From contig JAAILG010000469.1 in assembly GCA_012026655.1 (NCBI GenBank), forward strand, positions 1 through 64,000: a stretch of 64,000 nt of DNA, read 5' to 3'. The position numbers were made by a program, and so were the translations under genes. Source of the stretch: Hydrolagus affinis (taxonomy: Eukaryota). Below the pieces are notes generated by a model that saw only the letters and a program-made list of their open reading frames with translations, was not told the DNA's origin and made no database searches. Below, piece by piece: positions 27,653-48,581 of this stretch. Every line of letters starts with the position of its first letter. The stretch's first letter is position 1.

Positions 27653-27999
27653 AAATGATAATCATTTATCATAGCTGACAGCAAAATAAGAGCTGTGATG
27701 CCCTTTAACCACCAGCAAAATATTTTTGTGGTTAGTGTTGTTGTCCTTTATTTTTATTGTAGAAATTCACAAGTCCTAAAGTATCATTTTTAAAATGGGA
27801 AAAAAACATTCAGTGTTTCATTCAGCCCACCCAGAAATCACTGTGTTCTTTTCTTGTTGAACAGACATGTTTTCTTCAACAAAAAAAAAGATTTTTTTTT
27901 AGGTCAGGCTTTACACAGTACATACTTAAATTAATTGGACTTCTCCTTTTCAAAAAAAAATTGAAGGATTTCTTTTTCTGTTGTTGTCTTCCTCCAGTG

Positions 28000-28285
28000 C
28001 TTGTGAGGAGGCAGACTGCCTGCACTGTGGTTTCAGTGTTCGGCTTATGCAAATGCTCTGAGCTGCAAATGAAATATTCTTGACAGATGAATTGCACTGT
28101 GTATGAAGCTGATCCCACTCTGCTCTGCTTTTATGATAGAAAACTGCAGCCTCCAGTAAATCAAGGGGACCACCTTCCTCCGAGCTCCAATTGGCCCCGG
28201 AGTAGGAATTCACATCACATCTTGATTTCCATGGCAACCGTAGCCTTTCCCATTATGAGCTGTATCATCTGACTGATGTCATAGC
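28000..28285 (+). promoter_or_regulatory. Probable AKAP6 (alpha isoform) proximal promoter
   Basis: Octamer ATGCAAAT 28047-28054, CCAATTGG 28187-28194, X-box-like ATTTCCATGGCAAC 28225-28238, CRE-like TGATGTCA 28274-28281, just upstream of the exon 1 donor; local CpG rise. Confidence 0.55.
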
Positions 28286-28372
28286 AGCATGCAGCAGGTC
28301 AAATCAGGCACCTCCCAATGCATCCGACAGAGGTACTGAGCAAACCTATGCAACATGGCATAAAGAGAGATG
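28260..28372 (+). other. AKAP6: AKAP6 non-coding exon 1 (5' boundary/TSS approximate)
   Basis: Strong donor ATG|GTGAGT at 28372/28373; CATGCAGCAGGTCAAA.CAGGCA.CTCC..TGCATCC.ACAGA..GAGATG resembles the human AKAP6 5' UTR as I recall it. Confidence 0.75.
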
Positions 28373-30139
28373 GTGAGTCTTATTCTTAATCCTATCTGCC
28401 AGAAATTTCATAGCGATTCGTGATTGTCTTTGGCTGTAGACTCGTACTGTAAAGTGTTTGTGGTAACACCTACGCAGAGATTTCTTTCTTTGTGTTCGAC
28501 ATTATTCATATCTTGTGAGAGGCGCTGCCGCATAAATATACTGTGCTCGGCAGACTGGAATAAGATGAAGGCCTAGCAATCTGAAGCACCGATTCCGGAC
28601 GATGTGGGACATACACGTATGATGGTTCTCAGATGGTACGATTTCAATGAATAATACTGTACAAAGCTTGATGTCAAAAAAAATTTTTTTACAGAATATT
28701 GTGGCTGCAGTTTTTACTCGCAGTGCATTATGTCTTGTTCAGTCGATGGAACAGTGCTCGAGATGACAGCTTTCCACACACCATAAACCCACCGAAAGGC
28801 CTAGTATTTTATACGACTGCTGTCAATAGCTGTACAATTATCTTGCAGCCAGCAGCACAGCTCTGCCCTCAAGCTGCCTTTCCATTGCAATATTGTGCAG
28901 AGTAATTGCTGATCAATTTTGGGTGTAAGTCACAGCCTGATAAAATAATGGAATGTTTATCGGACATCAATATTCATCAGCAGATTACATTTAGAGAAAT
29001 ATTAATACTTCCTTTAGTATTTCTTTCATTTAGTAAATGAGAAATGAATAGCAACAGTCTTGTAATAATAAGATGATGGTTGGTTGATAGAACATTTATC
29101 AATGAACATTATTAAAGAGAACAGTGTCTTAGAGGTCTTCATAATAGATAAATATTTAATATGAGATTGAAGGGAGATCTCTTAGGCTTGAAATTAAATC
29201 TGCCTGGTTTGTGCAGAACAAGAAAATCATTGCCTTGTATGATGGTGCTTGTAAACGGGTTAGAGTAAATGAGTGAAATATTACTGTTTTTTTGTGAGCT
29301 TGGCCTGTGGGTCTCATCTGGCAAAGGCAAGAGAGGAACCTTAAGAGGTCTAATTATTTTCTCTTTCATCCTATCCTTCGTTTGCCATTATAACATTTCC
29401 AATCAGTTTCATTGCAAATTTGTTATCCACTTGAGGCTATAGGATGTGTATGTGTGTATCTATGCACACATTCACCTACATATATATATATATATTCTGT
29501 AACTTATTTATTATTTTAAAACGAGAAGTATTTAAGGTTAAAATGGATTCTCTGGGCTGATAGGCATGCATTACTTGCGTTTTTAATTGGATTGTTAATA
29601 ATTCATAAGCAAGCGTCAGTAATTTGAGTGGAACTGGCCACAGCACCAGACAGTGGTTGGAGGTGGGGCTGGAAGGCTTTGCCGGGAAGGGCAAAATGTC
29701 TGACAAGGCAGCTGAGGTAACATCTTGAACAAACTGGGCAAATACAAAATGTTTGTTAATCACTGGGGACCCAATGCTGTGCTTCGATTGGGCCTGGGTC
29801 ATTTATCAAGTTGTTTTCTTCACCAGCTAGAGTTGGGATGGGCCAAGGTCGAGTCGAGAAACCTGCAGAGTTTCAAGATGATTAATATGTCTTGTTGAAA
29901 AGGGAACTGCTTGTTGATCGGAATTATTTCATGTGTTCAGCAATCTAATTGATAGAAATTCGGATATTTTAAATTCGTGTGAAATGCCCTTTTTTGTACA
30001 TTGATAGTAAACTTTCACTACCACATATGCGTCTCTGGATGATTTTACATTGTAGCTTCCATTTTATTCATTTATAACAACAACAACAAAATTATATTTG
30101 TGTAGCAGATAAATCAGTATAAATCCCTAAATATAAATA

Positions 30140-30240
30140 GTAAGGCTATCAGAGGGTATAGAAAAAAGGTAGGTAAATAGCATTGAGTTACAGATCAGCT
30201 CTGATTCAACAGAAGGGCGGGTCCAGACTTCTGTTTCTGA
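30140..30240 (+). mobile_element. CR1 LINE 3' end fragment
   Basis: ATCAGAGGGTATAGAAAAAAGGTAGGTAAATAGCATTGAGTTACAGATCAGC, resembling chondrichthyan CR1 3' ends. Confidence 0.5.
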
Positions 30241-32489
30241 AAATCATGTTAAGCATGTTTTCTGTGGGTTGTACCCAACTCAGGACATTGACACAGTTAT
30301 GAAACAAATTCAGGAACAAGACTAGAATTAATGTGCGGTTCAATCAGAAATGTAGTCACTTCCAGACTAAATAACACAGCGTGATTGATAAATTAAATGT
30401 CACCTAAGATTAATTCTGGACCCAGCCAATTCTGTACAACTGTTTCTCTCGCCTGATGACTTTACTAACTGTCCCTTTCCAGCAATAGGGGCTGTTTAGA
30501 TGGAGTTGAAAGCAAAAGCCAAACGATGCAGAGGCCTCACGTGAGATCTAGGACGACCTGTGCCTTGGAAGCATTTCATTATGAGGTTGCCATGAAAGCT
30601 TTGCCTCCCATCTTTTTCTTTGTCAGTCCTTCTTTGTTTTTTCTTGGTTTGTTTTTTCTAAAAGGCTAGTCTTCTACTGAATAGCTAAAGGCATGTTTAC
30701 TGAGAGATGAATCTCTCCCCTAGCATTGGTGTACCCACTAGGGAGCATGTTTATGGGAACAGTGAATTCAGCAGTTGTAGCATGGTGTCTGGATGATGCG
30801 ATTTGCTTTGTAACCAGTATTGATCATCTTTATTGGTTATGAGAACACACGCCTGTATTATTTGAGGAAGTAAATCATTGCTCTCTGTGTCATCCTAAAA
30901 TGGAAACCATGTTGCCCATGTGGATGAAACTCAAGCTGCTTTGGGGACCATTTGTTCCACCGATGTCTCATTCTTTTGTTATTTGCTAGTAGAAGTGGGT
31001 GGTGGTGCAATCGGGATTATGTTCCCAAGGTTTACTCGGCAAGTTCAGGGCAGGATTTATTGACCATTTTTAATTTAGAATTTTTATTGTTGACTAGTTT
31101 GGTTACATAGGGTCTGACACTTTTTCAGCTTTTGTGGATAGAGATGGATCTCAGTTTGGGGACAGCTACTTGGTATGGGTACAGCTCACTATCCTATTAT
31201 CTATGATGTTGGTTTATTTCTCATTTTCCTTTTAATGCTTTCATCAAAATGTGATTTGCTGCATTGATTTGGCTGTGATTGCAGGAAGCATTTTTGACCA
31301 GTTGATGTATTGTATAACCTGGGGAGCGCATTTGTCGCCCTTTGCACCTCCGATAATAAACCATGGGTGAATAATTGTCCCACGTGTAATCTGAGTATTT
31401 CTCTCATCAAGAAATCATACAAAATGCTATTGATGTAGTGTGTTCCATTGGCAAAAACATTTTGCCATAAATACCAGTTTGGCTTCCAAAGGCAATTATC
31501 ACAGGCAAGCTTTCCTTTGCATATCCAACTAGGACCACCCTACAGGTTAGGCGATTGGCTTTGCAGGGTTAAGAAAAGCTGTGTGGAAAGAATCCCGTCC
31601 CCCAGGGAAAGGCAATTATTCCCCCTCCCCTATCCATGTCTCCTCCCACCACATATCATTACCTTTGTTTAAAAGAGGGTGAAGTCAGTTACTCAACAAA
31701 GAATCTCTGTTATAATGAAGATATTAGTTAACCAACATGAAAATAAATCTACGAATATCTTGATGCAGAGTTAACATTTTATTTTTCTGTGTTGCCTCTG
31801 CCTATTTTTCAAATGAGGATCTTAAATGTGGATTCACGTCTATACTTATGTCAGTATACTGAATAATTCTAATTTTTTTTCCAGGAATAAATGGATTCCT
31901 AAGCAAGTATTGCCTTTGCCTTGTAGATTTGCAATCCTTTCACAACCCTTCCTTTTCCCTTCGGTTAGGTCTCTCTGACTCCTAGTTGGACCAAATGGCC
32001 TGGTATGGTGCTGTATTTAGAGACAATTTATCCTCCCTGATAGATGCAATTGTATATAGATTTGCAATAGCTTTCAGCAGCTCAAGGTTGATTTTTTTCT
32101 TCTCTCTGGCCTCAACCAAGATGCCTCCACCCTTTGATTACATGTCATTTCCTGTCACTGGTCTATTCCCAGTATTGTTGCAGAGCTTCTCATGATATCA
32201 TACCCGATATAAGATTACATTCTTCAGATAAGATGTGTCCTGACCTGCAAGGCTAGAAAGCAAACATGAGATAAAATCATTAATGATCAGAAATTCCAGA
32301 TGATTTTTATTTGGAGGTTTTACTCTCTATTTAGATCTCTCCAGATGCTTCCCATTCACTGATGGACAGAACAAGACTTTCCTCCCTGATGCGTATCATC
32401 AGTTTGTTGCTGCAGGTATTTTTGCTCTGTTTACCTAGCAATAAGTAGAAACCCAGTTGTTAGTCAATTGAGGGTCACTTTCTGGAGGG

Positions 32490-32684
32490 GGTAATAATCC
32501 CTTTAATAAATAAAATAATTATAATTTGGTCATTCACTCCACAACTGTTTGTGGGACACTGCTGTGCGTAATTGGCTGCCATGTTTTGCTCACAAAATAC
32601 AGTCATATATACTTGACAGTATATTCTGTGAAGCGCTTTGAGACGCCTTGACGATGTGATTAAATGCAAGGATTATTATTATTA
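32490..32684 (+). mobile_element. Deu-type SINE, 5'-truncated
   Basis: TTGGTCATT..CCACAACTGTTTGTGGGACACTGCTGTGCG..AAATGCAAGGATTATTATTATT. Confidence 0.85.
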
Positions 32685-33094
32685 ACACTAAGAAATGAGT
32701 ACAGTTGTCTGATCTTGCCAGTCTTCCGGGATGCACAAGGAAATCAAGGATTCACTCATTTCAGTGCTCAACAGTGCCACCTGCAAATGGCTGTCTGGAG
32801 CTATGTACTGTATAAACATTCATGAGAGCAATCACGCAGTTGACTTGTTGGTTACATTTACTTTTCCAAGAGATTCTCTGTCTTGTCCTTTGTTGTTAAT
32901 TAGCTATAATTAATTAACCCCTGTGCATGTGCTGAATGTTTTTTGAGGGGAGTTTTAAGGTTGCATCTGTAAACATATTATTTCCTACAAAACAATCTGC
33001 AAATATGATATTTTATTGAAAGCTCCTTTGGAAACCATTTAAATCCAACCAGGCATCCGGTTGAAAATTGTTAGACTGTGTGGGAATGACTGAG

Positions 33095-33369
33095 CAACAA
33101 CAACAAAATTAATTTATAGAGCGCCTTTCATGTCGGAAGGACGTCTCAAGGCACTGAACAGTTAGGTCAGCACCCGAGCAGGAGAGCAAGGGTTGGGGTA
33201 GGAGCAGGGGAAAGTAGGAGAGTAGGAATGGGGGGAGAGTTAGGAGGGCAGCAGAAGCCACGGTCGAAGAGGAAGGCACAGTTGAGGCCGGCCTTGAAGG
33301 AGGAAAGGGAGGAAGCTAGGCGAAGGGATTGCGGGATGGAGTTCCAGAGTGTGGGGGCAGAGAGGCTGA
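33095..33369 (-). mobile_element. L2 LINE 3' end
   Basis: Minus strand encodes SLSAPTLWNSIPQSLRLASSLSSFKAGL, then 3' UTR, stem-loop and (TTG)n tail. Confidence 0.85.
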
Positions 33370-36300
33370 TACTTATGGCCATAAATATCCCCCGTATTTT
33401 GAATCAGCCACACAATTACACCAATTTATATACAAGGATGGCTAAATTGTTTTTCACACTACACACAACATTACAACACTTACAGTTTACAACAGAGAGA
33501 GAATCAGAACACAGTCCTTTTCCCATTGAGACAAGCTTTTAAATCCACTCCACAGTGATGTGACACACCCCTTGCAGCTCAAATCTTCACCAGGAATACA
33601 AGAAAGACAAAGACTCTTTTTAGACCATTTCATGAATGATATATGTATTAATTAGGTGCAATAAGATTGCTTTTTTCTGCAGTTGTGTGCTGTTTCGAAG
33701 GTCTGATTAACATAAGTCCCACCTACCCTGGAAAGCTTGAATAGTCAGAAATGAAGTGTATCGACAATTCCTGCAGCAGTGCACTGCCTGCTGCTGAACA
33801 ATTTCCAGCTAAACCATTTTATTTTCAAATTGTCTTGATGGGTGTAAGGGACATTAAGGTGTTTATTTAAGATCAATTGAATGTCCATTTTATTCGATTC
33901 TTTCACAGGGATAATGTCAGTCAATCCAGAGTAAACTGGCATGATTAGAAATGTGATGCAAAAGGAAAGGAAATGGGTTTTGTTGGGCAGGTTAGCTGTA
34001 TGTTTGCTAACAATCTAACGCTGCAGAGCTGGTCTCCTGGCTATCGGAGTGAAGTCGTGTGAATTTCATTTCAACTCTCGTTTCTCATTGGTGATCTGAA
34101 ATGCTTCTGGGAAGAGTTTCTTCAATAGTATAGTTGGCAAGATGTCTTGTTTATACAAGCTCTCAACAAAAGTGCTGGACTGTAAATATTCGCTTTTCTA
34201 AAACCACAGCCTCAACACTGAAATCGCGTTGATTCTATGCTACAGTGAAGCAGAGGCAGACAACAACACAGGCTTGTGGCTCGTTCCAAAATGTGTGTGC
34301 TCTCTGTTAATTCTGAGGGTAGACGGGAGAACTCTTTCACACCTGTGCTGCATGCATCAGGCTTCCAATAATTTACATATTGATATGATGACATGTGTTT
34401 GCTTTTGAAAACACACATCCGTTCCGAATGAGAGTCTGGCATAAAACAAGCTTATGTGGCAGGAGATCTGAGGCCTGACATTGGGCCCAACGTCTAATTA
34501 ACCAGATGCATTCAATTTGTTTCAGTGGTAGTTGCCCAATAATTCAAATTTGCTTCAGGAAATCAATCTGGGTCTATTAAATAGCAACCAAACTGAGAGA
34601 ACAGCATCATGTGGGATTGGAAGAAAGTAGAAACTTTTGTCGGTCAATTTATGTCTACTTGAGGAGCAGCAATACAGAGGATTAGTTTGACAGATTTTCA
34701 AAGCTCCAGTGTAAAGTGTAAAGCTGAGGCAAAACATGTAGCCATGGTCACAAGAACCATTCTGATACACCTACCTCACAGTAGAAATGTGCATGGGAAA
34801 GATTGAAATTGACTCGTGCAAGAGAGCAAGATTGCAGATATATTCAAGAACAAAATCATCCATAGCGATACAGAAGTAACATTGAATATTCATGAGGAAT
34901 TCACTGTGAGACATTTCAGTATACTGTACTGTAGTCATAAGCAGTCTGATGGGTTTAACCTAAAGACCTATATATACAGCAAGCTTATAAAGCAGTCCCC
35001 AGCCCATTGAGCTGTGTTGGCAGCAGTGATGCTTTTTATTCTTTGGATTTTCATCCAATATAAATAGATTCCTCTTTAGATAATTATTAAATTAGAAAAA
35101 TATATGAGTTTTTTTTAAAAATGACTGGAGATTGAACAGCAGAAGATGGAGCATTGTCTGCATTGCTAACTACCTGGTGGAAATTCAGTGATGTTCACAT
35201 TGTATTTGTATAGCTTGGACTTGGGCCGAGTAGAATAACAGGTATCTCTGTTTTCCACTGATTCATCCTGTTATTTATCATGTTTGGGTGTTGAGTTTAA
35301 AGACCATCTAAGCCTGAAAAACACCTTCATTTGCCCCATAAGATGTTTGACTCAGAAATATAACTTGCCGTTTAGAGAACATTTCTTTCTTTATCCTTCT
35401 GGGGAAAACAGAAGGATGTGGGGAAAGTAAGAAGTAAGTGGACAGTAGTATGGAGTTTGAACACTTGCACGGACTATTTGAGCCAAATGGCTTGTTTCTG
35501 TAATGTACAGTGTACAGTATATAGATCTCTGGGTGATATTGGCTTGTTTCCATTGAAGATTGGACAATCATTGCCAGAACAGCTTTGATGAGTTCCATGT
35601 GGAAATGGTAAATAAGCAGCCCAGGGCTTTTGGGGGGTCAAATGAAAGATTTAGTTTATTCAAAGAAAAGGGACATAAGCTTTACATCTGGAATACATGG
35701 ATACATTGAATAATTAATTAACTAAAGCCAATAATCGAGATAGTCAATGAAGCTTGAAACTATAAATGGTTGAATGTAGTTGAGGTATTTTCAATAGCCA
35801 GATAATTAAACACATACACTACATACAATGGACCTGACCATGTTTGAATGAATTGCAATCATTGTTGCTATGAATAAACTTACATTTTGATACTCTTTTG
35901 ACATTAAAGCATTTCAGAGTAACTCCTATCACAATTAGTGAATATCTTGACCATAATGAATAGACACAAGTTATTTGCATCAGCATGGCCTCACAAATAG
36001 TCCTGAAATGATTAGTCAATTCATCTGGAGAATTATTGCATACGTCACTGGTAGAAAATAACTTAATGTCATGGGATCCTTAACTTCCACATGAGCAAGA
36101 AATGTCTCGTCTGAAAAACAGCACCTTTGACACTCCAATCGGGTGAGAGAGGCTGAATACTCTGTTGGGAGACAAAAGCTCAATCAGTCCTGACATAAGA
36201 TATAAATATATAAATGCTCATTTACATTGCTTTCATCACATTATGATACAAAATTAATGCTGGCATTATCACAGTGGAAGGAAATGTACCTATTGTGGCA

Positions 36301-37604
36301 TTAGGATTACTTTCATATAACCCCTCATGAAATTCCAGTGTGTGTTTACCTGGGATTGTTGTGATTTTAATGCATACAGGTATAGCTGGGATTTTAAATG
36401 TCAAATGGTAGCAATGGCACCAAAGACAACATAGTGATTCAATGTCACTGTGATTCTTTCCCTGTTCTGTTCCTATGTGACTGGAGTTGAAAAGCCCAAG
36501 GTCAGCAATTTCTATAAATCTTGCACTAATTCTTAATATCAACCAACTGCAGTCGTTCCATTATTCCAAGTGTAATTGGAGTCAGATTTCGACGGCTATA
36601 GTTCCAGTAATTGGGCCATCTGGCTGGGCTTGTGTAACTCTCGTATTGCTGGGTTGGAGAAGATTAAGTAATTATATCCAATGAACATCAAGGAATAGAG
36701 AGCAGTCAACTATCACACAAGTGGTTGACCGAATCCATCCTGAATGTCACTTCACCTAATGTAGGTTAAAATTGCTGCTCTGAGCACATGCCTGACAATC
36801 TTTATTAGTTGCAGTTGGAAAATGTCTTATGTTTGTTAAAGGTTAAGATGTCATAAATGTGGGATTTTGTGTTTTGACTGCAATCTTTGGATGCAGGAAT
36901 AATGTATTCTAATGGTTTCATACATTAATAACAACTTGAATTTATGTAGCACCTTTTACACAGGCTGAAATCTCAGAGCTTTACTGAGAGGGGAGGTGGC
37001 CATACATAGGTAGAAACGAAGAGGCATTTTCAATTTTAATGGTGAAAGAATTTAGGGAGAGAGTTCCAGATGGAAGGGATAAAGTGATTATAAAAGACAA
37101 GAAGATTACTGTCATACCTGTCTCCTTTGAGAGCTGAACGGAAACTCAATTATTTAGCTTTGAATAGCTGATTTCGAGCTGAAAAGTCCCATCTGGAAGT
37201 GTTTAAAGAATTAAGACAGTGATATGAAGGGTTCAGAAATGGGATCTGTGTAGCTGTGATTATCTGTTTATATTTCATTTGCATGTTGTATTTATGGAAG
37301 CAAATAGAGTGATGCTTATTGTTAGAGAATTGACAGAATGGTTACCTGTTCATTTCTGTAACTATAAAGATTGAGTTGTACTTCCACAGCAAGAGAGGCA
37401 AAGACATTCTTCAGACCACTTCTCCACTCTTTCATGAGAGTGAGTTTCAAATTGACATTGGTGGAGATACAGATACAAATTGCAGAATAAAACAATAAAA
37501 TGACCTGGTAAGTCGCAGCCATTAAATAAAGTATGGAACAAAAAAAACAAATCAGAATCGCACTAATTTGCAACCAGGAATATTTCTGCTTCCAAAGTAA
37601 AGCT

Positions 37605-37690
37605 CATAAGAAAATAGAAACATAGAAATAGGAGTAGGCCATTCAGCCCCACAAGCCTGTTCCACCATTCTATTCAATCATAGCTGATCA
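37605..37690 (-). mobile_element. CR1 LINE extreme 3' end
   Basis: AGAAACATAGAAATAGGAGTAGGCCATTCAGCCCC..GCCTGTTCCACCATTC..ATCATAGCTGATC, as recalled for shark CR1 termini. Confidence 0.7.
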
Positions 37691-38424
37691 GTACTTTATA
37701 ATCTGTAGTTTGTGCAGGCCAATAGTATTCTTTGTTAAAGATTCAGATTAAGAAATATCCCAATAATAAATTAGACCCTGTTAGTTCCAAGAGGCAGTGC
37801 ATCAAAATATATAATTAGATGAATTACAATTAAAATGAGCTCCTAGATTTGCTGATTTAAAATAGATGTAAGTTGCTGAACTTTGAATACTGTACTGGGA
37901 GCTTTGCCTCCAGTTGCTCAAGCTGCACCATGGATTGAAATTTGCAAATCAGGAGACACAAGATGTTTTTGGAGCTGTTGTATGAATTAAACGAATGTGA
38001 GCAGACAAGCAGGAAATTATACCTTCAGGATAAACTCATCAACATATACTGTATATAGCCTTATGCCACTGCAGTTTGATTTGCTCAATTCTATGTATCT
38101 CTTCCTACTAGTGATAAGGCGCTGTATCAAATGCAAGGATTATTATTCTACATTCAGGTCAACTAAGATGCTTCTATCCTGGTAAATTCAACTTATTAAA
38201 ACCACAAACTTGCAAGGGAATGACAAGTATCTTGTATTGAATTAATTCTTCAAGTCCATCCGGTTTGAGGCAATTGCTTGAATTGTTCCAGCAAAGTTTG
38301 TATGTATAATCCATTCTGCTTCACATTTCCGCTGCCAAATTCTACCAGTGATTTTTATTATTTCAATATTTTTAGTTCTAGTATTTTGGGGGAAAGAATT
38401 GAATTGAGCCTTCAAAAGTATTTT

Positions 38425-38737
38425 GGAGTCCTGTAGCTCAGTGGTTAGAGTACTCGCCTTACAAGTGTGAGATCCGTGTTCGAATCGAGGCAGGTCAGGG
38501 TGAAACCTTGGGCATGTTTCCTTACTCCACACGCCTAATAATAATCCCTCAAAAAAATAATAAAATTGGTCATTTCAATCCACAACTGTTTGTGGGATAC
38601 GGCTGTGACAATTGGCTGTTGTGTTTCGCCCACAAATATACGGTCAATTTACTTTACAGTATATTCTGTGAAGCAGCTTAAGATGTCTAAAATATGTGAA
38701 AAGCACTGTATCAAATGCCAGGATCATTATTATTATT
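38425..38737 (+). mobile_element. Full-length tRNA-derived Deu-type SINE
   Basis: GGAGTCCTGTAGCTCAGTGGTTAGAG (A box), GTTCGAATC (B box), Deu-like core, (ATT)n tail. Confidence 0.92.
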
Positions 38738-41677
38738 TTCTTTACAATAGTAACAGCACTGGCTTCCGTAACCTCTGGCTAAATGATTCCATCTCCACTT
38801 GTGTTTGTTTTAGCTTCTTCACACCATTAATTCCACTGGGCTCATTCTTCTGGCAAGGTTATCTGCTTTCTTCTTGGAAGAATACATTTTTTTTATATAA
38901 ACTCATTTTTTGGGGAGTCGGCCCGGTGTCTGATACGTGTGGAAACCATCACCATGCTTAAAAATATCCAGGCTAAACGGAGATAGATAAAAGAGCACTT
39001 TGAAGCTGATCAAAATCCTTTGCATTAGCTTTACTTTTAGAAGTGCTCCGAATGGGCAGATTCCTTGTCTTCAATGTATTGAGACATTTCCTATCCCTTG
39101 TGGCAATTGAAGTTGCAGCTGACATTTTGTACAAATGAAAAGCTTACAGAAGATTTCATCCTATTGTTGTTGACCATAATCTTCCGGGGTTTTTCAAAAC
39201 AAACCTAGCCTGTGTTGATGGACATTTGTCTGCATGATATTGAATGTGATTACACCAAATTTCTGCTCCTTCCAGTCAGAAAGGATTAGATCCGATTAAC
39301 AATCACTGATACGACAGCACTGGGGAAAGCTGGGGCACTGCGAGATTTATTGTGGCTTAAGGGATCTGTGTTTCACTGGACTGTCAGAAGCGTACTGGTA
39401 AAGACAATCAGCTGATTATTGAGAGAACTTCCTGCAGTGAGACTGTCGCATCTGTGGCGATTTGGATAAAATTGACAGAATAAGGGAAAGTGACAAGAGG
39501 AAGGATGGCTATTATCAGTAATTTAGGGATTGCATCACCAATTAGGTAAAAAAAAATGATTTCAATTATGAAGAATGCAATAAGGCCATTTGTTTGCAAT
39601 TGTCTACATTCTCATTAGAGTAGTTATAAGACTGAATATTCTGTTTAAGAACACTGTATAGAAAATGCCTAGATTCCAATTTGAACTATTAGTAATCATG
39701 TAATTGCATGCTGTACTGTACGTCTATTCTTATTTTGGTACATTTCCAAGTCACATTTTGTATTCGTGTTCTTTTTATAACAGATAAATGAAGTACCGCA
39801 TGTGACGGATTTGTGTAGACAGAAACACACAGGCAGGCAGGGCCACAAGGGCAAGGTGGAAAGGATGAGAGAGCATGAAGAGGGAGGAGGAGCCTAACCT
39901 TCCTCAGGCTGGCATCAGGCACAGACACAGAATGCTGATGCAGATCTCCTCACAGGGGAAGAGGAGTAACCACCTTTTTCCATTTGCTGATGCATTTTTT
40001 TTCCCCCTCCGCAAACAATTGATTTCATAAGAAAAATAAGAAGAGACTTGGAAGGCCAGAGTTGGAATGTTATAGGATTTTATGCTACGAATAACAAAAT
40101 AACACCTCTAGTAGTCCTCAAAAGGATGGGCATCATTCAGCTTGCTTAAAGCACTGTACACAGTAGGTGTGGCTTTCTTCTATGCCTTTCAATGTTTGAT
40201 GAATTTGTGATTTGATTTGCTCGTTAATGACAGATTATGGGTTGGTGCTCCTGTTATGCTCTGTGTTGACAGTGAACATGCAGAGTGAATGCTCAGACAG
40301 GCAGCAGAAGGGTGTGTGTGTTTTTTAATCTGCATTGTTAGAGATAGATCTGCAGTTTCCGGGATCCAATGACGAGACAGGTCAGCAGGTTGTAAAGGTC
40401 AGTACCGTACACATCCTGTACACCAATCTACCTCGTGTTAGTGTTTCAATAAGGGTACAAACAGGTTAATGTACTGCATCTGTGGTAGATCGCTTTTTAT
40501 ATCTATTGAGCAATTGAATTGAAAGTGAATGGAAAGCTGTGTATGTGAAAGCTGGAGATTGAGGGACTGCAGTACAATGTGTTTATTCCAAGTTGGGTGG
40601 AATTATCTTATTATTAGTCTTACTGAAAGGTTCTGATTATATGGTGTTAGGTGAAGGTTGAGCTGTGCAGTAAATCAAATATTTACAAGCAGTCTGCATA
40701 CTAATACTTATTTTTTGTACAACATTATTTTTTAAAGAAATACAAAAGAATTCCTGTTGTCTTTACAGCATTGGCCTGCTTGAACAAATCTTGATTTTTT
40801 GGCTAAATAACTTGTGAGATAAATGGCAGTAGGATGAGCCCGGATAAAACAACGTAGAATACCTGATAGTCGATAACTCCTTTTAGTGCACACTGAGGTA
40901 CACAGAATCATTTTCTCTAGCATAACGCACAGTTATACTGTATGACTAATTTTCTTTACAGCATGCAGTTTAACGGTCTAACTCATGCAGGCTGCTGTCG
41001 CTCCTTCAAATGCTAATCTGTTCATTGTTGAACTCTGAAGTCGTGCTTTGAGCTCTCTAAACACTTTTAAATTCCACTGGTATAAATAGAAAGTATGTTT
41101 GATACAGTAATTGCAGCTCAATTCAATGGCCTCCCAAATGTACACACAACTGATATCTGTAAAAAAAAAATTGTGGAATGCACCACCACAGCACATGCCT
41201 TCAATGATGTTTTAATTGTAAAACAGTTTAATCCTAATGAAAGTAACATGATGCATCCTTAGTGACAATCTTGCTGAAGATTAGATTATGAAGAAAAAGC
41301 ATGTTGCCACTACATAAAATATTTAACTACATTTTTGGCCTATTTGGGTAATGTTATTTTGATTGGAGCCAGTTTCTGTTTGGTTTCACTTGCCTGCTAC
41401 GTAGCTGTTGTTTTGAACAGTTTTTGAATCCCTCTATATATAGTACTTGGCTGGAACTTTTGAAACTGAAACAGTCTCATAGGATAGGATAAGCAACACA
41501 CTGATATTTTAATTAAACGCAGGCAGCTAGAGTTTGTTTTTTATATATAAAAAACCTTCATGAAATAGAATTCTTCCTGTATATCAGCATTCTTTTCTAA
41601 AAGTCCTATGTCTCAACTGCTCTTTGGTCCACTTCATGCGCTTTGACCATCTGAGGTTTATCATAGTCTTTATTTAC

Positions 41678-41986
41678 ATAATAATAATAATCCTTGCATT
41701 TGATGTAACGCTTTTCACATCTTCTAGATGTCTCAAAGCGCTTCACAGAATATACTGTAAAGTTAATTGACTGTATACTTATGGGTGAAACACGGCAGCT
41801 AATTGCCACAGCAGTGTCCCACAGTGGGTTGAAATAACCAATTTTATTATTGTGTGTGTTTTTTTTTTAGGGATTATTATTAGACGTCTGGGGTAAGGAA
41901 ACTTGCCTTTGGTTTCGATCTGACCTGCCTGGATTTGAACACGGGTCTCACGCTTGTAAGGCGAGTGCCCTGAGCTACAGGACTCT
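41678..41986 (-). mobile_element. Full-length tRNA-derived Deu-type SINE
   Basis: Reverse-complement copy of 38425-38737 with a small deletion in the A box. Confidence 0.9.
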
Positions 41987-42595
41987 ACATTACATGAGCA
42001 ATCTATTCTAATGAGAGCTGCTCTCATCTGCAGGGTGACACTCGCGTTCACCTTTTCTATCTGTTGTCCATGCTCCATTCTACAGAATATACCAGCTGGC
42101 TCAACGATTGGGTAGAATGATGTCTCAATCTTGAACAGTTCCTTGTTTTAATTTTCATGATTGATGTTTACCTTACGTTTTAATGCATTTAACAATTATC
42201 CAGATTCAGAATCCACCAATAGAAATCCCGATTGAGAAGAAAACATATTCAGAGGAAGATGAGGCAGATTATCTGAGGGTATTGCTGGCTCATGCTTCAT
42301 AAGAAAATGTCTGTTGCACAACTATTAATCTGAAGATCATATGTGGGATTCCCCATTTCCGTCAAGACCACATAGGAAACCTACCATTAATCACAGCACC
42401 AGCTGCAAACACGCAGGTTTACTGCATGTCTTGAATGTCAACCATTTTGGTTGTGGACAAATTTGAGCATAGTTTATTTTGGACTGAGTACATAGATCTG
42501 TTGAGGAAAAGTAATGGATTTGTTTATCATTTTGCATTCATTGTTTTTCATTTAAGTGATATGGTTGCAAAACATTTACATTTTGCTGGTTCATA

Positions 42596-42613
42596 GTGTG
42601 TGTGTGTGTGTGT
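42596..42613. repeat. (GT)n microsatellite
   Basis: About 9 GT units. Confidence 0.85.
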
Positions 42614-42629
42614 ATATAAAGCTAAAATG

Positions 42630-42810
42630 CAGTCAAACCCATCTTCAACAACCTCTCAGAGGCCTCGTCCAAAGTGTCTTTTATATGAGGGTGGCCACTG
42701 AGTAAGGGTATGTTGATGTGTGAAAACACACTGAAAGGGCTGTTCCAGGCTGGTTGTATGTAAACAGGGGGTGGTTGCTGAATTGGAAGTGATTGCTTGA
42801 ACAGGTTTGA
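42630..42810. mobile_element. Decayed Tigger-like MITE
   Basis: CAGTCAAACC left end and GGTTTGA right end form a short degenerate TIR. Confidence 0.35.
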
Positions 42811-45800
42811 AGGCAAGAGCTTTACATCCTTTAAAATGCTCTTTCAAGTTCTTAATATATTCAGCAATAACGGGATAGTATCTATCCCACTCTCCATAAT
42901 CTTAAGTGTAGATGACAATCTCAAGGTGTATATCATAGTACAGTTAAATTTAAAGACATTTACTCACATTCTATTGTTGGATGTTTGACCTGACCAAAAG
43001 TGTTTTTGGACATGGAATGCTACTTTATGTCAACTTTGAAATTAATTCTGCCATTTTTTTTGGAATTCCAGTAGAATTGTTCCAGTCATTCTTTCAGTCA
43101 CAGTCTGGCAGACCCAGCAAGTCTATTTCTTGGTGCCTGTGCTATTCTGTCCGACCTAGGCGACTTGGTAAAATTAATGATTTGTAACTTGGATACATTT
43201 AAGACCAGAAGAGGTCAATTTTGTCCTTAAACTGATATTTTACATGAAATAATAAACTGCAGCCACAAATTCTCTTCAGTTATAACGTTTGTTTAGAGAC
43301 TAAGCTGCGAGCCATCTGAAATGACATCCTTAGGGCTTTTGGGCAGAGTTATCTTTGGGGTTGTAATCGTTGAACTTTTTCATGCTGAAAATTTTATTCA
43401 GTCCAAAAGTATGTTCCTAATGGCAATCGCGAAGATCCAAAACCTCTGTGGTATTTCAATACAATAGATATGAGAAAGATGCATTCATGTATATAAAATT
43501 AAATTATCTTCCTTCAACTTGTCATCAAATATCATCAAGATGTAACCTACAGCTTTGACAACAGCTTAACAACAGCTTAACTGGAAGCCTTCAGTGAATG
43601 ATCAATAAATTCCTTCACTTCTGCTCATGGACACTATTTCATTATTGCATATGTTTATGTTGCAATTTTCAATATGCACCATCTTCTGTTTTTCACTACT
43701 TGTACAAATGAAGGGTTGTCCATTAGTAGGATTGGGAAAGGAAAACTACTGCATTATATATGAGCATTGATCATTCACTACAGATTTTCAGACGAGGTGA
43801 AGCTGGGACACAATATTGTATATGTGTGTTACTGGAGCTGAGGGTAAATTGGTTAAATGAAGATTATTTTTGACTACATGATAAGGTGTTATATCAAATG
43901 CAGTAGTCATGTGTTTATATATCTAATGCTGTAGTCATATTTAACCTTAAATTGCATGTAAATAGTCCAATATAGACATTCCCCAGTTTATCTTAAGATG
44001 ATTTGAAAGACTGATTCATTTAAGATGGAACTGTCCAGGTCACTCACTTAAATTGCAGAATATTGATATTCATTCTTTCCAAGTGAGCTCCTGTTTTGCC
44101 TTTCAGCTGTCATCCACTAATTTGGATCATTTTCTTTCCAAATACTTAAAGGTGGATTTCCTGTTTTTCGAAAGGATTTTCTTAGTACCTCTCATCAATC
44201 CCTGACAGCTGAGCCATTTCTATAGTGCACTGGCATTTTGTGTCCAATGTGCACTGAAGATTAATGTTAGTTTAATTTGTAATTCATTTGAGCAGCTCAA
44301 CAGGGCTTCAGAATAGTGTATAACTTAAGTTCTTCATGTAGTGGAACAAATTCATGTCATATAATAAATGTAAGAATATACTCTGAAATTGATGAACCGT
44401 CAAAATCACCACAAGGATCCTGGAAATGAGAAGCCAGTTTTATAAAAACTTTCAAAACTTACAGGAAGGCAGCCCTTCTACTTTTTTGTGCAATTGTATC
44501 TCAACTACTTACAATACAGGGCAATTTACTTTTATATAGTGTCATAGGATATCTCAATGCACTTGAACCTGCTGGCTGTGAACCCAAGCTGGAGCCACGG
44601 GGGGTTGGGGAGGAGAACAATTACTGAAAAAGCATCGTAGGGATTCACCTTGAGACAGGCCTTCAATGAGCAGAGGGAGCTTGTGATCAGAGGGATTCTG
44701 AGATGGAGTGCTGGGTTTAATCCTAATAATTTAACAGTTCTGCATATCGTTTGGAAAATGAGCATTTATGCTCTATACTTGACCTTCTGTGTAACTTCCA
44801 CAAAACAAGTAGATCTGCCTAGAAGCGACCATACAAATTTCCCCTCCATAATCCTAAGAGTTGGGAAGCCATCCCCAGTTCATTTCTGAGCTCTTCAAAT
44901 AGTTTGACCTGCAGAAGAGTAGAAAGAATTGTTGCTTTTGATATGAGTTGGATCAACCTCAGGATCCTCGTGACTTCTTTTAGCATCATAAAAATGTCCT
45001 AGAATCCTTCTAAGTAAAATCACAAATTTGAATCCATGTCCTGCGAATCTTGAGTGCAGGATGGGTATTGTGAGGAAGGGTGGGAAGGGTGGCAATGAAA
45101 ACATTTCACTGGAGGAATTATTGAGCCTAATGTATTTGATTTACTTTTTAAAAATAAACATTTAGCCCTTCTTGAGTAAAAGATCTAGCATGACAGTGTC
45201 CACAGTGATATTCCTGATAAACCCCTGGTTAAAGTACACAGAGAGCTCTTTTTATCGTTCAGAAAGGAACAGAAACAGCAGGGAATTCAAAGCCTTAACA
45301 TGGCCTCCGGGTTCAAATAATATTCAGAAGCAGGTTGAGTTTTGCTCCTGTAGTTTGTGATATGTCAATTGAATTCTTCCATTGATACTTCCTGCTGGGA
45401 GTATATATAGATGCATCTTTGCATTTTATAAAGCATTTTAGGATTTGTTCTATTCGTCCTCTTACATTAAGATGCACTTGTGTCTCTACTGATTCTTTCC
45501 ACCCACTCACCTAGATAAGTCTACCTTGGTCTCAGTGCTTTGTAGGCTTCTTTGATCACATCTTGTTCAGTGAGGGGAATTATTGGCTATCCATTCCAAT
45601 CCTTAGGACTCCAGGCACACTCTTGAGAGTCACACTAATCCCTCCTGATAGTTTTATCCAATTTACATTACATGGATTTTTTCATCACATCCTTGCGACT
45701 TGTATCCATCATGTCAAGCTGATTATATCTTTATCATTAACATTAAATCCTCTACGCATATCAGATGGAGTGTAAAACATCTGCTGTGGCCAAATCATGT

Positions 45801-47129
45801 ATATTAACCAGAGTCTCCACAGAACAGTTCCTGTGGCAACAGTGTAAATGGTTCCATTCCCACACCAGCTATTTCCGAATTAAACTGACAATTAGTACTA
45901 GTTTTGTTTTGCTGTGGACTTGCACTCACTGTGATGTGGTTTCTCATTGTCCAAGCACATTTTATATGGGATCTTTAAGCTTGAAAAGCTATCAATGACA
46001 ACAACAAAATAAAATTTGTATAGTGGCTTTCACGTCGGGAGGACGTCCCAAGGTGCAACGTCATTATTCTACCACTTGCAAACTGTTTTACAGAATTTAA
46101 GATAGAAATGCAGGCATTTTGAGGACAGTTGGACATGCAGTAATATCTGTGCCACTGCCACCTTTTTTAACATCCTTTTCTATTTGTTTTACTATATTAT
46201 AGGCTATTTATAACTATGGCCGGGGTTTAGAACCTGCCATTGAAACAATCATTCGACTTCCCACACCACTGAACTCATACATTACTGTTACATTACTCAA
46301 AGGCTTTCCGCCCTGTACCTAATTGAAAGTAAAACTCTAAGACACATCTGTTCAGTGGTATTTTGTGCTCTGCTTAATGCCCTCCAGCCGTACAGTCACC
46401 TGCCCCTTTGTGGATCAACCTAATACTGGAGTCAAATTAACAGTGTTTCTTAACCAGATGCAAATCAAAGCTTTTCTGGGTTCATCATGTTAACCTGTGA
46501 GTATTTCACTATGACATAATCTGCTTCTGGCGAGCATTGTACTGGGATTGCTTATTTTAAGCACTTTTGAGAGAGGGGGATGCTAACATTGCACAGGAAT
46601 GATGATTGATTTCCAATGGCCCTCACCTCCATCATTACTGCAGCTATTCACAGCTAACTCAGTTTGGCAATGCACTGTGCTTGAGAGTTGGCTCATCTGT
46701 ATGCATGACTTAATGGTACATCTCACAGTGCGTTAATCCACTGAGCCATGAAAGAACTTGTAAACCAGATACAGTATAATGTTATATTTAAAACTGTAAT
46801 GGTGAAAAGTCAGAAGGCTATGTGCTTCTTTCATTTGGTTCATTTAAAGAGCCCATTAATCTCTCTGGACATTCAGCTTGTCTTGGCTCACTGCAAGGAA
46901 CCATAACATGAAGCATGGAGACTGCGAGATGATAGTCGAGCCAACGTTTAATATTTAAACACTTTTTCTTCTGTTTGGATAAAGAAGAAAGAGACCCACA
47001 ACAACAAGTTGTATTTATATAGCACCTTTCGCTTTGGTAGAATGTCCCAACATGCTGGACACTTGAGGATTTGCACCTCGGGAGGGGTGGAGGTGATGAT
47101 GGATGGTTGGGGGCAACTAACCAAATTAG

Positions 47130-47330
47130 AAGACAAAGGTTTAGCAGTATAACAAGCCTGTTCTGTTTCAGGACAGGTGCCAGGAAATATTTCTTTACCC
47201 AAATGGTAACTAACAAACAGAACAGATTATCAAGAAAGGTGCTCGTGGCTTGATGTTGTGATAGGCTGGCTGGGTATTCTGGAAGGCTGAAATGAAATGG
47301 GCTGAAGGGCCTCATTCATCTGAACCTCTC
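47130..47330 (+). mobile_element. CR1 LINE 3' fragment
   Basis: FRTGARKYFFTQMVT...NRL remnant followed by AATGGGCTGAAGGGCCT 3' UTR motif. Confidence 0.7.
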
Positions 47331-47728
47331 TTTGCTGTGTAACAATCTGTTTTCTGCAATTAAAGAGATGAGTAGGCAACTAAATTGAACTACTGTACTG
47401 AAGAATGGAGCGCAAGTGAAATGGATGGAAACCTAGTAAATTGTTGAATAATTGAGAAATTCAGATGAGAATGAATGAGGTTTGGAAGCAATGCAATATG
47501 AGAGAAAGCAAAAGAGGTTGGAGAGTGCAAAAGATTTTTTCTTTGGAAAAGTGGAAATGCAATAAAGATGGGAAGAAACAGAGCCAGTGAATCACTCTGC
47601 AGTATATGCTCCATCTTGTGTTCCTCACTGGATAACCAACAGTGAAACGAATGCTGCCAGTCTCAAAATAGTGGTTTTAGCATTTTAAAGCTATCATCAT
47701 AAGTTATGTATTTTTCTTCCAATTGCAG

Positions 47729-47845
47729 TTAGAAAGACACCAACAGCGACTTGGCACAGCAGAAGGAGGCTCTGGAATTTAAGGCAGTGATTCAACCAAA
47801 GGAGTCTCAGGCGACAAATCACACTGATAATCAGGGATAACTCAG
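47729..47845 (+). other. Candidate 117-nt cassette exon of the AKAP6 5' UTR
   Basis: tttttcttccaattgcag acceptor, perfect CAG|GTAAGT donor, purine-rich body, no ATG, 381 nt upstream of the first coding exon. Confidence 0.5.
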
Positions 47846-48269
47846 GTAAGTTTGCAAACCAATAACCTTGAGGCCAAGCAGCAAGGAACGATTGGTCAGG
47901 TCAAGAATGAGTAAGTAGATAAAGATGATCATTTGGAATTCTTAAAAAAGGGCTAATCCTCGACCTACCCCTATGATCTGCTAACCTTTTAACAACTTGT
48001 CTGTCACTCCGCTCAGTAGGCTTCAGTCTGCTCCACGTACCCCTCCCAGCCCACTTCACCATCTTGTGACATTAAGAGAATAAAAGCATGTTACAGAACT
48101 GAAAGTAATAGATCTCACACAATCAAAATCAGATGAGTTTGAATTTTTTGCCTCCACTCTACCTATTGAAACATAATTTTTGTATTTTATCAGTTTATTT
48201 TTGTGCTATTACGTATTTCTCTGCAGCTATACCTAAAAAGATTGCAGTGTGGATTTAATCCAGATAGCC

Positions 48270-48581
48270 ATGAGCATCTTACTCTCTCCCGTGAGGAACC
48301 AGGAGTTGGATCCCATGGCAACTGACACATCTCCCATGGTAACGAACATGACCCCAGTGGAAGAGCCTGAGGGTAATGGAAGCATGAAGACGCTTGACTC
48401 CAGCCAGCGCTATGAGAAGCCTCCACCGCTTCACACAGGGGCAGACTGGAAGGTGGTTCTTCATCTGCCAGAGATAGAAACCTGGCTACGCATGACGTCA
48501 GACCGCGTTCGAGATCTTACCCATTCCGTGCAGCAAGATGCTGATAATAGACACGTCGATGTGCACTTGGTGCAGCTGAAG
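48270..48581 (+). CDS. AKAP6: A-kinase anchor protein 6 (mAKAP alpha), first coding exon (exon spans 48227-48581)
   Basis: gccATG; 104 codons MSILLSPVRNQELDPMATDTSPM...YEKPPPLHTGADWKVVLHLPEIETWLRMTSDRVRDLTHSVQQDADNRHVDVHLVQLK; ctgcag acceptor at 48226, AAG|GTAAGA phase-0 donor; upstream in-frame TAA; follows ARHGAP5 as in other vertebrates. Confidence 0.96.

What the first reader, a model, noticed from the sequence alone, without database searches (positions are those of the whole stretch)
28370..48325. AKAP6 exon 1 ends in an ATG that opens an out-of-frame uORF overlapping the main start codon
Seen: the last three bases of exon 1 are ATG (28370-28372, G at -3). Spliced to 48227 it reads 33 codons (MLYLKRLQCGFNPDSHEHLTLSREEPGVGSHGN*), passes the main ATG (48270, 43 nt into the exon, so a different frame) and stops at 48323-48325 inside the CDS. 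Established: overlapping uORFs prevent reinitiation at the main AUG (ATF4-type repression). Recalled, unverified: human AKAP6 exon 1 also ends GAGATG with 34 nt to the start codon, the same frame offset. Inference: a translational brake conserved across jawed vertebrates, possibly diverting initiation to Met23 (48336) or Met27 (48348).
Basis: partly seen in the sequence, partly recalled or inferred. Interest (0 to 1): 0.7.

Follow-up and report, generated by a model that had tools for sequence, protein, structure and literature searches.

The report
Old upstream start codon in AKAP6
In a cartilaginous fish, the likely first exon of the brain form of the scaffold gene AKAP6 ends in an extra, out-of-step start codon that mouse also has, and it likely damps production of the protein as one of several small upstream reading frames, an ordinary kind of control whose exact overlap with the real start is not kept in all vertebrates.

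Summary
The junction was not seen in RNA of this species. A mouse hippocampus Ribo-seq table shows the same exon-end GAGATG, so the ATG is old. But the frame called translated in mouse is a different, non-overlapping uORF that reads across this ATG; the window has its counterpart (28318/28348 to 48256-58). The acceptor-to-Met offset is not fixed: 43 nt here and in bird-, snake- and mouse-type sequences, 41 nt in a related fish transcript, an inferred 44 nt in three teleost ORFs. So the overlap is not universal, and the 6-nt spacing to the short uORF is not ATF4-like. Best reading: one member of a multi-uORF leader that likely damps AKAP6-alpha; 15% of human leaders have such an overlapping ORF. 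One twist: skipping exon 2 would put this ATG in frame with exon 3, and a frog RefSeq isoform starts exactly so. The scan held no earlier AKAP6 note, only similar cases in other genes.

The parts
28289..28372 (+). 3' part of the likely first (alpha, brain-form) exon of AKAP6; 5' end unknown
   Evidence: Donor at 28373 ranks 11 of 4,151 + strand GT sites (recalled weights); single copy; exon end matches the mouse junction, and the mouse transcript model starts 60 nt before its exon end
28370..28372 (+). Exon-terminal ATG (G-3, C+4 after splicing); opens the 33-codon overlapping ORF with exon 2; would be in frame with exon 3 if exon 2 were skipped
28373..28378 (+). Splice donor GTGAGT of intron 1
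28355..28363 (+). Two-codon uORF (Met-Ala-stop), A-3/G+4, ends 6 nt before the terminal ATG and 52 nt before the main ATG
   Evidence: no such ATG in the mouse 43 nt
28318..48258 (+). Junction-spanning, non-overlapping uORF in the -1 frame: ATG 28318 (28 codons) or 28348 (18 codons), stop TAA 48256-58, 11 nt before the main ATG
   Evidence: same frame as the mouse uORF called translated; the stop block is kept in organism A
28289..28339 (+). 16-codon uORF, A-3, in the leader only if transcription starts upstream of 28289
48227..48581 (+). Exon 2: 43 nt of leader plus 104 codons, ending in phase 0; spliced to exon 3 (contig 69474) in organism A
48270..48272 (+). Main AKAP6-alpha start codon (G-3, A+4), homologous to mammalian Met4
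48323..48325 (+). TGA ending the overlapping ORF, formed by the Thr18-Asp19 codons of AKAP6
   Evidence: Thr-Asp or Ser-Asp at this place in 54 of 57 proteins scored (redundant set)
48315..48350 (+). Downstream in-frame Mets: Met16 (48315, inside the overlapping ORF), Met23 (48336, 10 nt after its stop), Met27 (48348, 22 nt after)
47729..47845 (+). Predicted 117-nt cassette or alternative first exon; if included, the 28370 ORF stops at 47780 and no longer overlaps
   Evidence: Top-scoring donor of 4,151 sites, single copy, frame effect; no RNA evidence

Best explanation
The likely first exon of brain-form AKAP6 ends in an old upstream ATG that is out of frame with the main start, and it likely diverts part of the scanning ribosomes, as one member of a leader with several upstream ORFs that together likely keep AKAP6-alpha synthesis low. 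Shown: the sequence, the frames and the contexts in the window; the same exon-end ATG in mouse; a ribosome-supported mouse uORF in the -1 frame that reads across this ATG and stops just before the main start, with a same-frame counterpart here. Inferred: ribosomes that start at 28318/28348 read through the terminal ATG and those leaving the 2-codon uORF 6 nt upstream are probably not yet able to start again, so the terminal ATG catches only ribosomes that leaked past the earlier ATGs; those that do start there pass 48270 and Met16 and are lost, or restart at Met23 or later; full-length protein comes from leaky scanning and from restart after the short uORFs. What appears kept in evolution is 'an out-of-frame ATG at the exon end', not the overlap or the peptide.
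For: Sequence and contexts. Mouse exon-end GAGATG followed by C, and a 22-codon uORF with 58 in-frame reads, frame Q 0.042, in hippocampal CA1 (methods). Same 43-nt offset in bird-like P0004 and snake-like P0118 read-through ORFs (Cys-Ser then 14 codons, as in the window) and a colinear turtle model P0009. None of the seven offsets I could read or infer (43 here, 43 twice, 41, 44 three times) is a multiple of three. Overlapping out-of-frame uORFs typically repress and are bypassed by leaky scanning (PMC10275272, passages). 15.0% of 18,764 human leaders have one (PMC11057154, Results part 1).
Against: No initiation at this ATG is shown anywhere: it is not among the stored mouse rows (5,783 of about 19,475), nor in the 7,264 human Ribo-seq ORFs, which list only two internal AKAP6 ORFs, nor in the RiboTIE supplements searched (no AKAP6 row at all). 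The junction is not shown in this species. Exon-1 ends were seen for two species only. The G of ATG is part of the donor consensus. A Xenopus tropicalis model (P0235) has no Cys/Trp at the junction codon, so at a 43-nt offset its upstream exon would not end in ATG (its exon structure was not seen).
Confidence: 0.55

Rival explanations
1. By-product: the ATG is simply the last three bases of a slowly evolving exon next to a splice donor, is shielded by upstream uORFs and has little effect on translation.
For: G at -1 is donor consensus; 2 of 19 strong donor-like sites in the contig end in ATG, 4 of 30 GGTRAG sites in the window; the frame has changed in organism A and probably in teleosts; not called in mouse or human tables; the stop comes from conserved Thr/Ser-Asp codons of the protein.
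Against: T at -2 is a non-consensus donor base (A would score about 2.2 bits higher, recalled weights), yet ATG is kept in mouse while most of the upstream leader is not (by eye); any AUG with a purine at -3 captures some ribosomes (established).
Confidence: 0.22
2. Dual-use start codon: the ATG is kept because exon 1 can splice straight to exon 3, where it is in frame and starts an AKAP6 lacking the 104 exon-2 residues; with exon 2 included it is a decoy.
For: Exon 2 ends and exon 3 starts in phase 0, and ATG plus exon 3 is open. RefSeq Phyllobates terribilis isoform X2 (XP_073495180.1, 1814 aa) is a lone Met joined to exon 3; isoform X1 (1905 aa) has exon 2.
Against: Only 1 of 163 exon-3-containing proteins starts this way (full-length forms over 2000 aa were mostly outside the search). 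Its upstream exon is unknown: a beta-like first exon in intron 2 of this contig also has a donor ending in ATG in phase 0 (65943). The organism A contig at depth 305 runs unbroken from exon 2 into exon 3 (contigs drop rare forms). Brain and retina show one band above 250 kDa (PMC4703706, passage), though an 11-kDa loss could hide there.
Confidence: 0.12
3. ATF4-type stress switch: the 2-codon uORF feeds ribosomes to the overlapping ORF in normal cells and past it under eIF2-alpha phosphorylation.
For: A short strong-context uORF followed by an overlapping one is present.
Against: Only 6 nt separate them; restart generally improves with distance (PMC10275272, passages; ATF4 spacing of about 90 nt is recalled); the short uORF is missing from the mouse 43 nt.
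Confidence: 0.04
4. Wrong leader: the main transcripts include the 47729-47845 exon or start elsewhere, so the ORF does not overlap the start.
For: Best donor score in 71 kb, good acceptor, single copy; acceptor-like site at 27995-97 could make exon 1 internal.
Against: The mouse model joins the GAGATG exon directly to exon 2; no RNA supports the extra exon.
Confidence: 0.07

Closest known systems
Out-of-frame overlapping uORFs (oORF/uoORF) of vertebrate 5' leaders (PMC11057154; PMC10275272)
   Same: Upstream AUG, out of frame, no stop before the main start, stop inside the coding sequence; expected repression bypassed by leaky scanning
   Different: The AUG is the last three bases of an exon; the overlap is lost in at least one relative; translation from it is not shown
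Mouse Akap6 22-codon uORF in hippocampal Ribo-seq (PMC13526858, Data S1 row 857)
   Same: Same gene, same junction with exon-end ATG, same -1 frame as the window's 28318/28348 uORF, stop just before the main start
ATF4 / GCN4 delayed reinitiation (PMC10275272 passages; ATF4 geometry recalled)
   Same: Short uORF upstream of an overlapping out-of-frame uORF
   Different: 6-nt spacing, short uORF not in mouse, no stress data
Start-codon introns, phase 0 right after ATG (PMC1626468, abstract)
   Same: ATG directly followed by an intron
   Different: There the ATG starts the protein; here it would do so only if exon 2 is skipped
AKAP6 alpha/beta isoforms from alternative promoters (PMC8523159, PMC4703706, PMC13632692, passages)
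   Same: This leader belongs to the alpha (neuronal) form with the extra N-terminus
   Different: None of the passages read mentions uORFs or an exon-2-skipped form

Membership tests
Overlapping uORF (oORF) | AUG upstream of and out of frame with the main start | tested here: met
   46 nt upstream after splicing, frame +1
Overlapping uORF (oORF) | No in-frame stop before the main start; stop inside the coding sequence | tested here: met
   stop 48323-25
Overlapping uORF (oORF) | Lies in the mature mRNA leader (junction 28372>48227 used) | tested here: inconclusive
   Not seen; homologous junction in mouse
Overlapping uORF (oORF) | Ribosomes start there and main-ORF output falls | not testable with these tools
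   Not listed; no reporter
Overlapping uORF conserved across jawed vertebrates | Same frame and overlap in all lineages | tested here: not met
   41 nt in organism A (assuming the same acceptor), inferred 44 nt in P0030, P0122, P0125
ATF4-type delayed reinitiation | Short reinitiation-permissive first uORF | tested here: inconclusive
   Present here (28355-63), absent from the mouse 43 nt
ATF4-type delayed reinitiation | Spacing long enough for restart at the overlapping uORF | tested here: not met
   6 nt; uORFs at 28276 and 28289 end further upstream but need an unproven start site
ATF4-type delayed reinitiation | Induction by eIF2-alpha phosphorylation | not testable with these tools
   No data
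Start-codon intron | ATG is the last codon before a phase 0 intron | tested here: met
Start-codon intron | That ATG starts the protein | tested here: inconclusive
   Not with exon 2; in frame with exon 3; 1 of 163 proteins starts so
Conserved-peptide uORF | Peptide sequence kept between species | tested here: not met
   3 of the first 9 residues match mouse (by eye); frame changes in organism A

The most novel reading that the evidence does not exclude
A splice-controlled start codon: the ATG at the end of AKAP6 exon 1 has been kept since sharks and mammals split because it serves twice. With exon 2 it is an out-of-frame decoy that damps AKAP6-alpha; when exon 2 is skipped it becomes the start of an undescribed third AKAP6 form, between alpha and beta in length, of the kind a frog RefSeq model already shows.
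Probability: 0.12. Interest if true: 0.6.

Novelty: new member of a known kind. Interest (0 to 1): 0.27.

Why it matters
AKAP6-alpha is a neuronal signalling scaffold needed for survival of injured retinal neurons (PMC4703706), so an old brake in its leader would be a handle on its dose, and human variants at this ATG would be worth checking. As a mechanism it is common. It would matter more if exon-2 skipping turned the same ATG into a true start, giving a third isoform and a clean case of splicing that switches one codon between decoy and start.

Tried and rejected
RNA: no listed run is on record as an RNA holder. Laying 20 kb (X1, X2, X4, X5) was swamped by repeats and showed no exon joint; X3, the deep contig, was laid on exon 2 only, so its 131 further upstream letters were not seen. 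Other vertebrates' exon 1: a 22-letter exon-1 motif gave 4 metagenome loci, all chance; a prokaryote-genome scan gave 2 weak unrelated loci. The search of protein representatives never ran, so full-length shark, coelacanth and mammal isoforms were not checked for a Met-exon 3 start. Literature: AKAP6 with uORF or upstream open reading gave one unrelated paper each (listings only); searches gave no uORF report in titles or abstracts. Supplements without an AKAP6 row: PMC4890304 (one 4-kb file), PMC11788427 (9 files, one unreadable), PMC10591829 (two small files). Not seen and able to change the verdict: PMC13010147 supplement (too large), sheets S2-S9 and most of S1 of PMC13526858 (cut), the human-brain Ribo-seq tables of Duffy et al. 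(preprint text has no AKAP6; tables closed; journal version not held), Johnstone 2016, Mudge 2022 and Passariello 2015 (not held), Michel 2005 (not looked up). Leader folding: -50.8 against -40.3 +/- 4.4 kcal/mol for mononucleotide shuffles, a weak control, not used. The GC-richer stretch at 19-21 kb looks like repeats by eye, not an upstream gene. Rows left out of the offset count: P0009, P0010, P0017, P0026, P0110, P0235 (spliced gene models, acceptor not readable) and P0032, P0217 (too short), 8 of the 13.
Full report
Observation. Every coordinate holds: ATG at 28370-72 with G at -3, donor GTGAGT, acceptor at 48225-26, a 33-codon spliced ORF in the +1 frame that passes the main ATG (48270, 43 nt into exon 2) and stops at 48323-25. 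Exon 2 codes the N-terminus of AKAP6, single copy in G000. The best matches are to sharks (81% for exon 2; 98% for exon 3), so the organism is likely a cartilaginous fish. Exon 3 lies past the window at contig 69474. The leader belongs to the neuronal alpha form; beta starts from its own promoter at residue 245 (passages of PMC4703706, PMC8523159, PMC11853192, PMC13632692).

The ATG is the last of several: 28289 (16 codons), 28318 and 28348 (one ORF in the -1 frame that crosses the junction and stops at 48256-58, 11 nt before the main ATG), and 28355 (Met-Ala-stop, A-3/G+4, ending 6 nt before 28370). Met16 at 48315 was missed. Exon 2 ends in phase 0 at 48581.

Chance. In one species the pattern is weak evidence: about 3.7% of exon ends are ATG by recalled donor weights, 2 of 19 strong donor-like sites in 71 kb end so, and a frame stays open over the 43 nt in 33% of shuffles. 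Of 18,764 human leaders, 42.5% have an upstream AUG and 15.0% an overlapping ORF (PMC11057154, Results part 1).

RNA evidence. The junction 28372>48227 was not seen. One search was swamped by repeats. One search shows exon 2 spliced to exon 3 in three contigs of organism A (RNA by guess) and 4 raw reads of organism C on exon 2, none reaching the 5' junction.

Mouse. The supplement of PMC13526858 (hippocampal CA1 ribosome profiling, Ribo-TISH; row, sections 6 and 18, layout) has one Akap6 row among 5,783 stored: a 22-codon uORF, 58 in-frame reads, frame Q 0.042, spanning a 96-kb intron. Its letters include GAGATG followed by C; what follows translates in the main frame like the reptile read-through residues Cys-Phe-Gly-Lys, which places the junction right after the ATG (my inference; the table gives no exon boundary). 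So mouse keeps the exon-end ATG in the same context. But the ORF called translated starts 43 nt before the exon end, reads Asp-Ala across the junction in the -1 frame and stops 26 nt into exon 2. That is the frame of the window's 28318/28348 uORF, not the flagged ORF. The call is modest in strength and the file is cut, so absence of the flagged ORF is weak evidence. The human list of 7,264 ORFs has only two internal AKAP6 ORFs (PMC10032668 supplement).

Frame across vertebrates. ORFs that read through the genomic acceptor give the offset. Bird-like P0004 and snake-like P0118 show Cys-Ser then 14 codons, exactly as the window: 43 nt. Mammals add Met-Leu-Thr before the homologous Met, which gives the recalled 34 nt. 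Three teleost-like ORFs (P0030, P0122, P0125) show Thr-Val, Ala-Val, Thr-Ala there, which fits an acceptor at 44 nt (inferred from amino acids). The deep contig of organism A (X3, depth 305, 25 differences in 321 letters) is 2 nt shorter between a conserved leader block and the Met: 41 nt if the acceptor is the same. With 41 or 44 nt an exon-end ATG reads the -1 frame and would stop before or on the main ATG. In organism A the stop of the junction-spanning uORF is kept. Whether these species keep the ATG was not seen. A Xenopus model (P0235) does not fit an exon-end ATG at 43 nt. None of the seven offsets is in frame, but that rests on about two independent shifts and is not significant. The stop at 48323 is made by Thr-Asp codons; Thr/Ser-Asp stands there in 54 of 57 proteins scored, so the protein alone can keep it.

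How it likely works. A leaky, multi-uORF leader (0.55). Ribosomes starting at the -1 frame uORF read over the terminal ATG; those leaving the 2-codon uORF are probably not ready again within 6 nt; the terminal ATG, in moderate context, takes part of the rest and carries them past Met1 and Met16, leaving restart at Met23 (10 nt on) or Met27 (22 nt) as a minor route. Overlapping uORFs typically repress and are bypassed by leaky scanning (PMC10275272, passages). Shown are sequence, frames and the mouse call; initiation here and its effect are inferred. The ATF4 reading fails on spacing and on the mouse leader.

The bolder reading. Exon 1's ATG is in frame with exon 3. A RefSeq isoform of the frog Phyllobates terribilis is a lone Met joined to exon 3, beside a full isoform. 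It is 1 of 163 exon-3-containing proteins, and its upstream exon is unknown; a beta-like first exon in intron 2 of this contig also has a donor ending in ATG in phase 0. The X3 contig shows no break at exon 3. I give this 0.12. It would be a start-codon intron (PMC1626468, abstract) switched by splicing.

Caveat on the leader. A 117-nt exon-like unit at 47729-47845 has the best donor score in the region, is single copy and, if included, would end the flagged ORF 106 nt before the main ATG. No RNA tests it.

Novelty. No paper on AKAP6 uORFs turned up (listings), and the scan's own notes have none on AKAP6, though they hold similar cases in KLF4, STARD4 and protocadherins (unchecked). Verdict: real, old, a new member of a common kind; interest 0.27.

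Noticed in passing
window 47729-47845 (+): Single-copy 117-nt exon-like unit 381 nt before exon 2, with a pyrimidine-tract acceptor, the best-scoring donor of 4,151 sites and no ATG; a cassette or an alternative first exon that would remove the overlap.
   Followed up: partly
L008 3460-3943 (contig C469 65460-65943, intron 2, beyond the window): Candidate AKAP6-beta first exon: two CAGCTG E-boxes and two donors 272 nt apart, recalling the two mouse beta 5' forms about 200 nt apart; the longer form would end in ATG in frame with exon 3.
   Followed up: partly
window 28180-28285: Promoter-like motifs by eye and recall: CCAAT near 28187, RFX X-box-like near 28224-38, CRE-like near 28274; raised GC and CpG at 28000-28800.
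   Followed up: no
window 27960-27997: Pyrimidine tract ending in CAG, 375 nt before the donor; could make 'exon 1' an internal exon in some transcripts.
   Followed up: no
window 32500-33400, 38100-38740, 41680-41970, 46050, 47000, 48712: High-copy interspersed repeats in and near intron 1, some as inverted pairs.
   Followed up: no
P0189 (Acipenser ruthenus model): A model with Pfam PF19518 and PF00620 joined to AKAP6 exon 3, likely a mis-joined prediction with the upstream neighbour gene, recalled as ARHGAP5.
   Followed up: no
P0144-P0168 and similar teleost ORFs: In many spiny-finned fish ORFs the exon-2 peptide starts near the KPPPLH motif after intron-like residues, suggesting an extra intron inside exon 2.
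   Followed up: no
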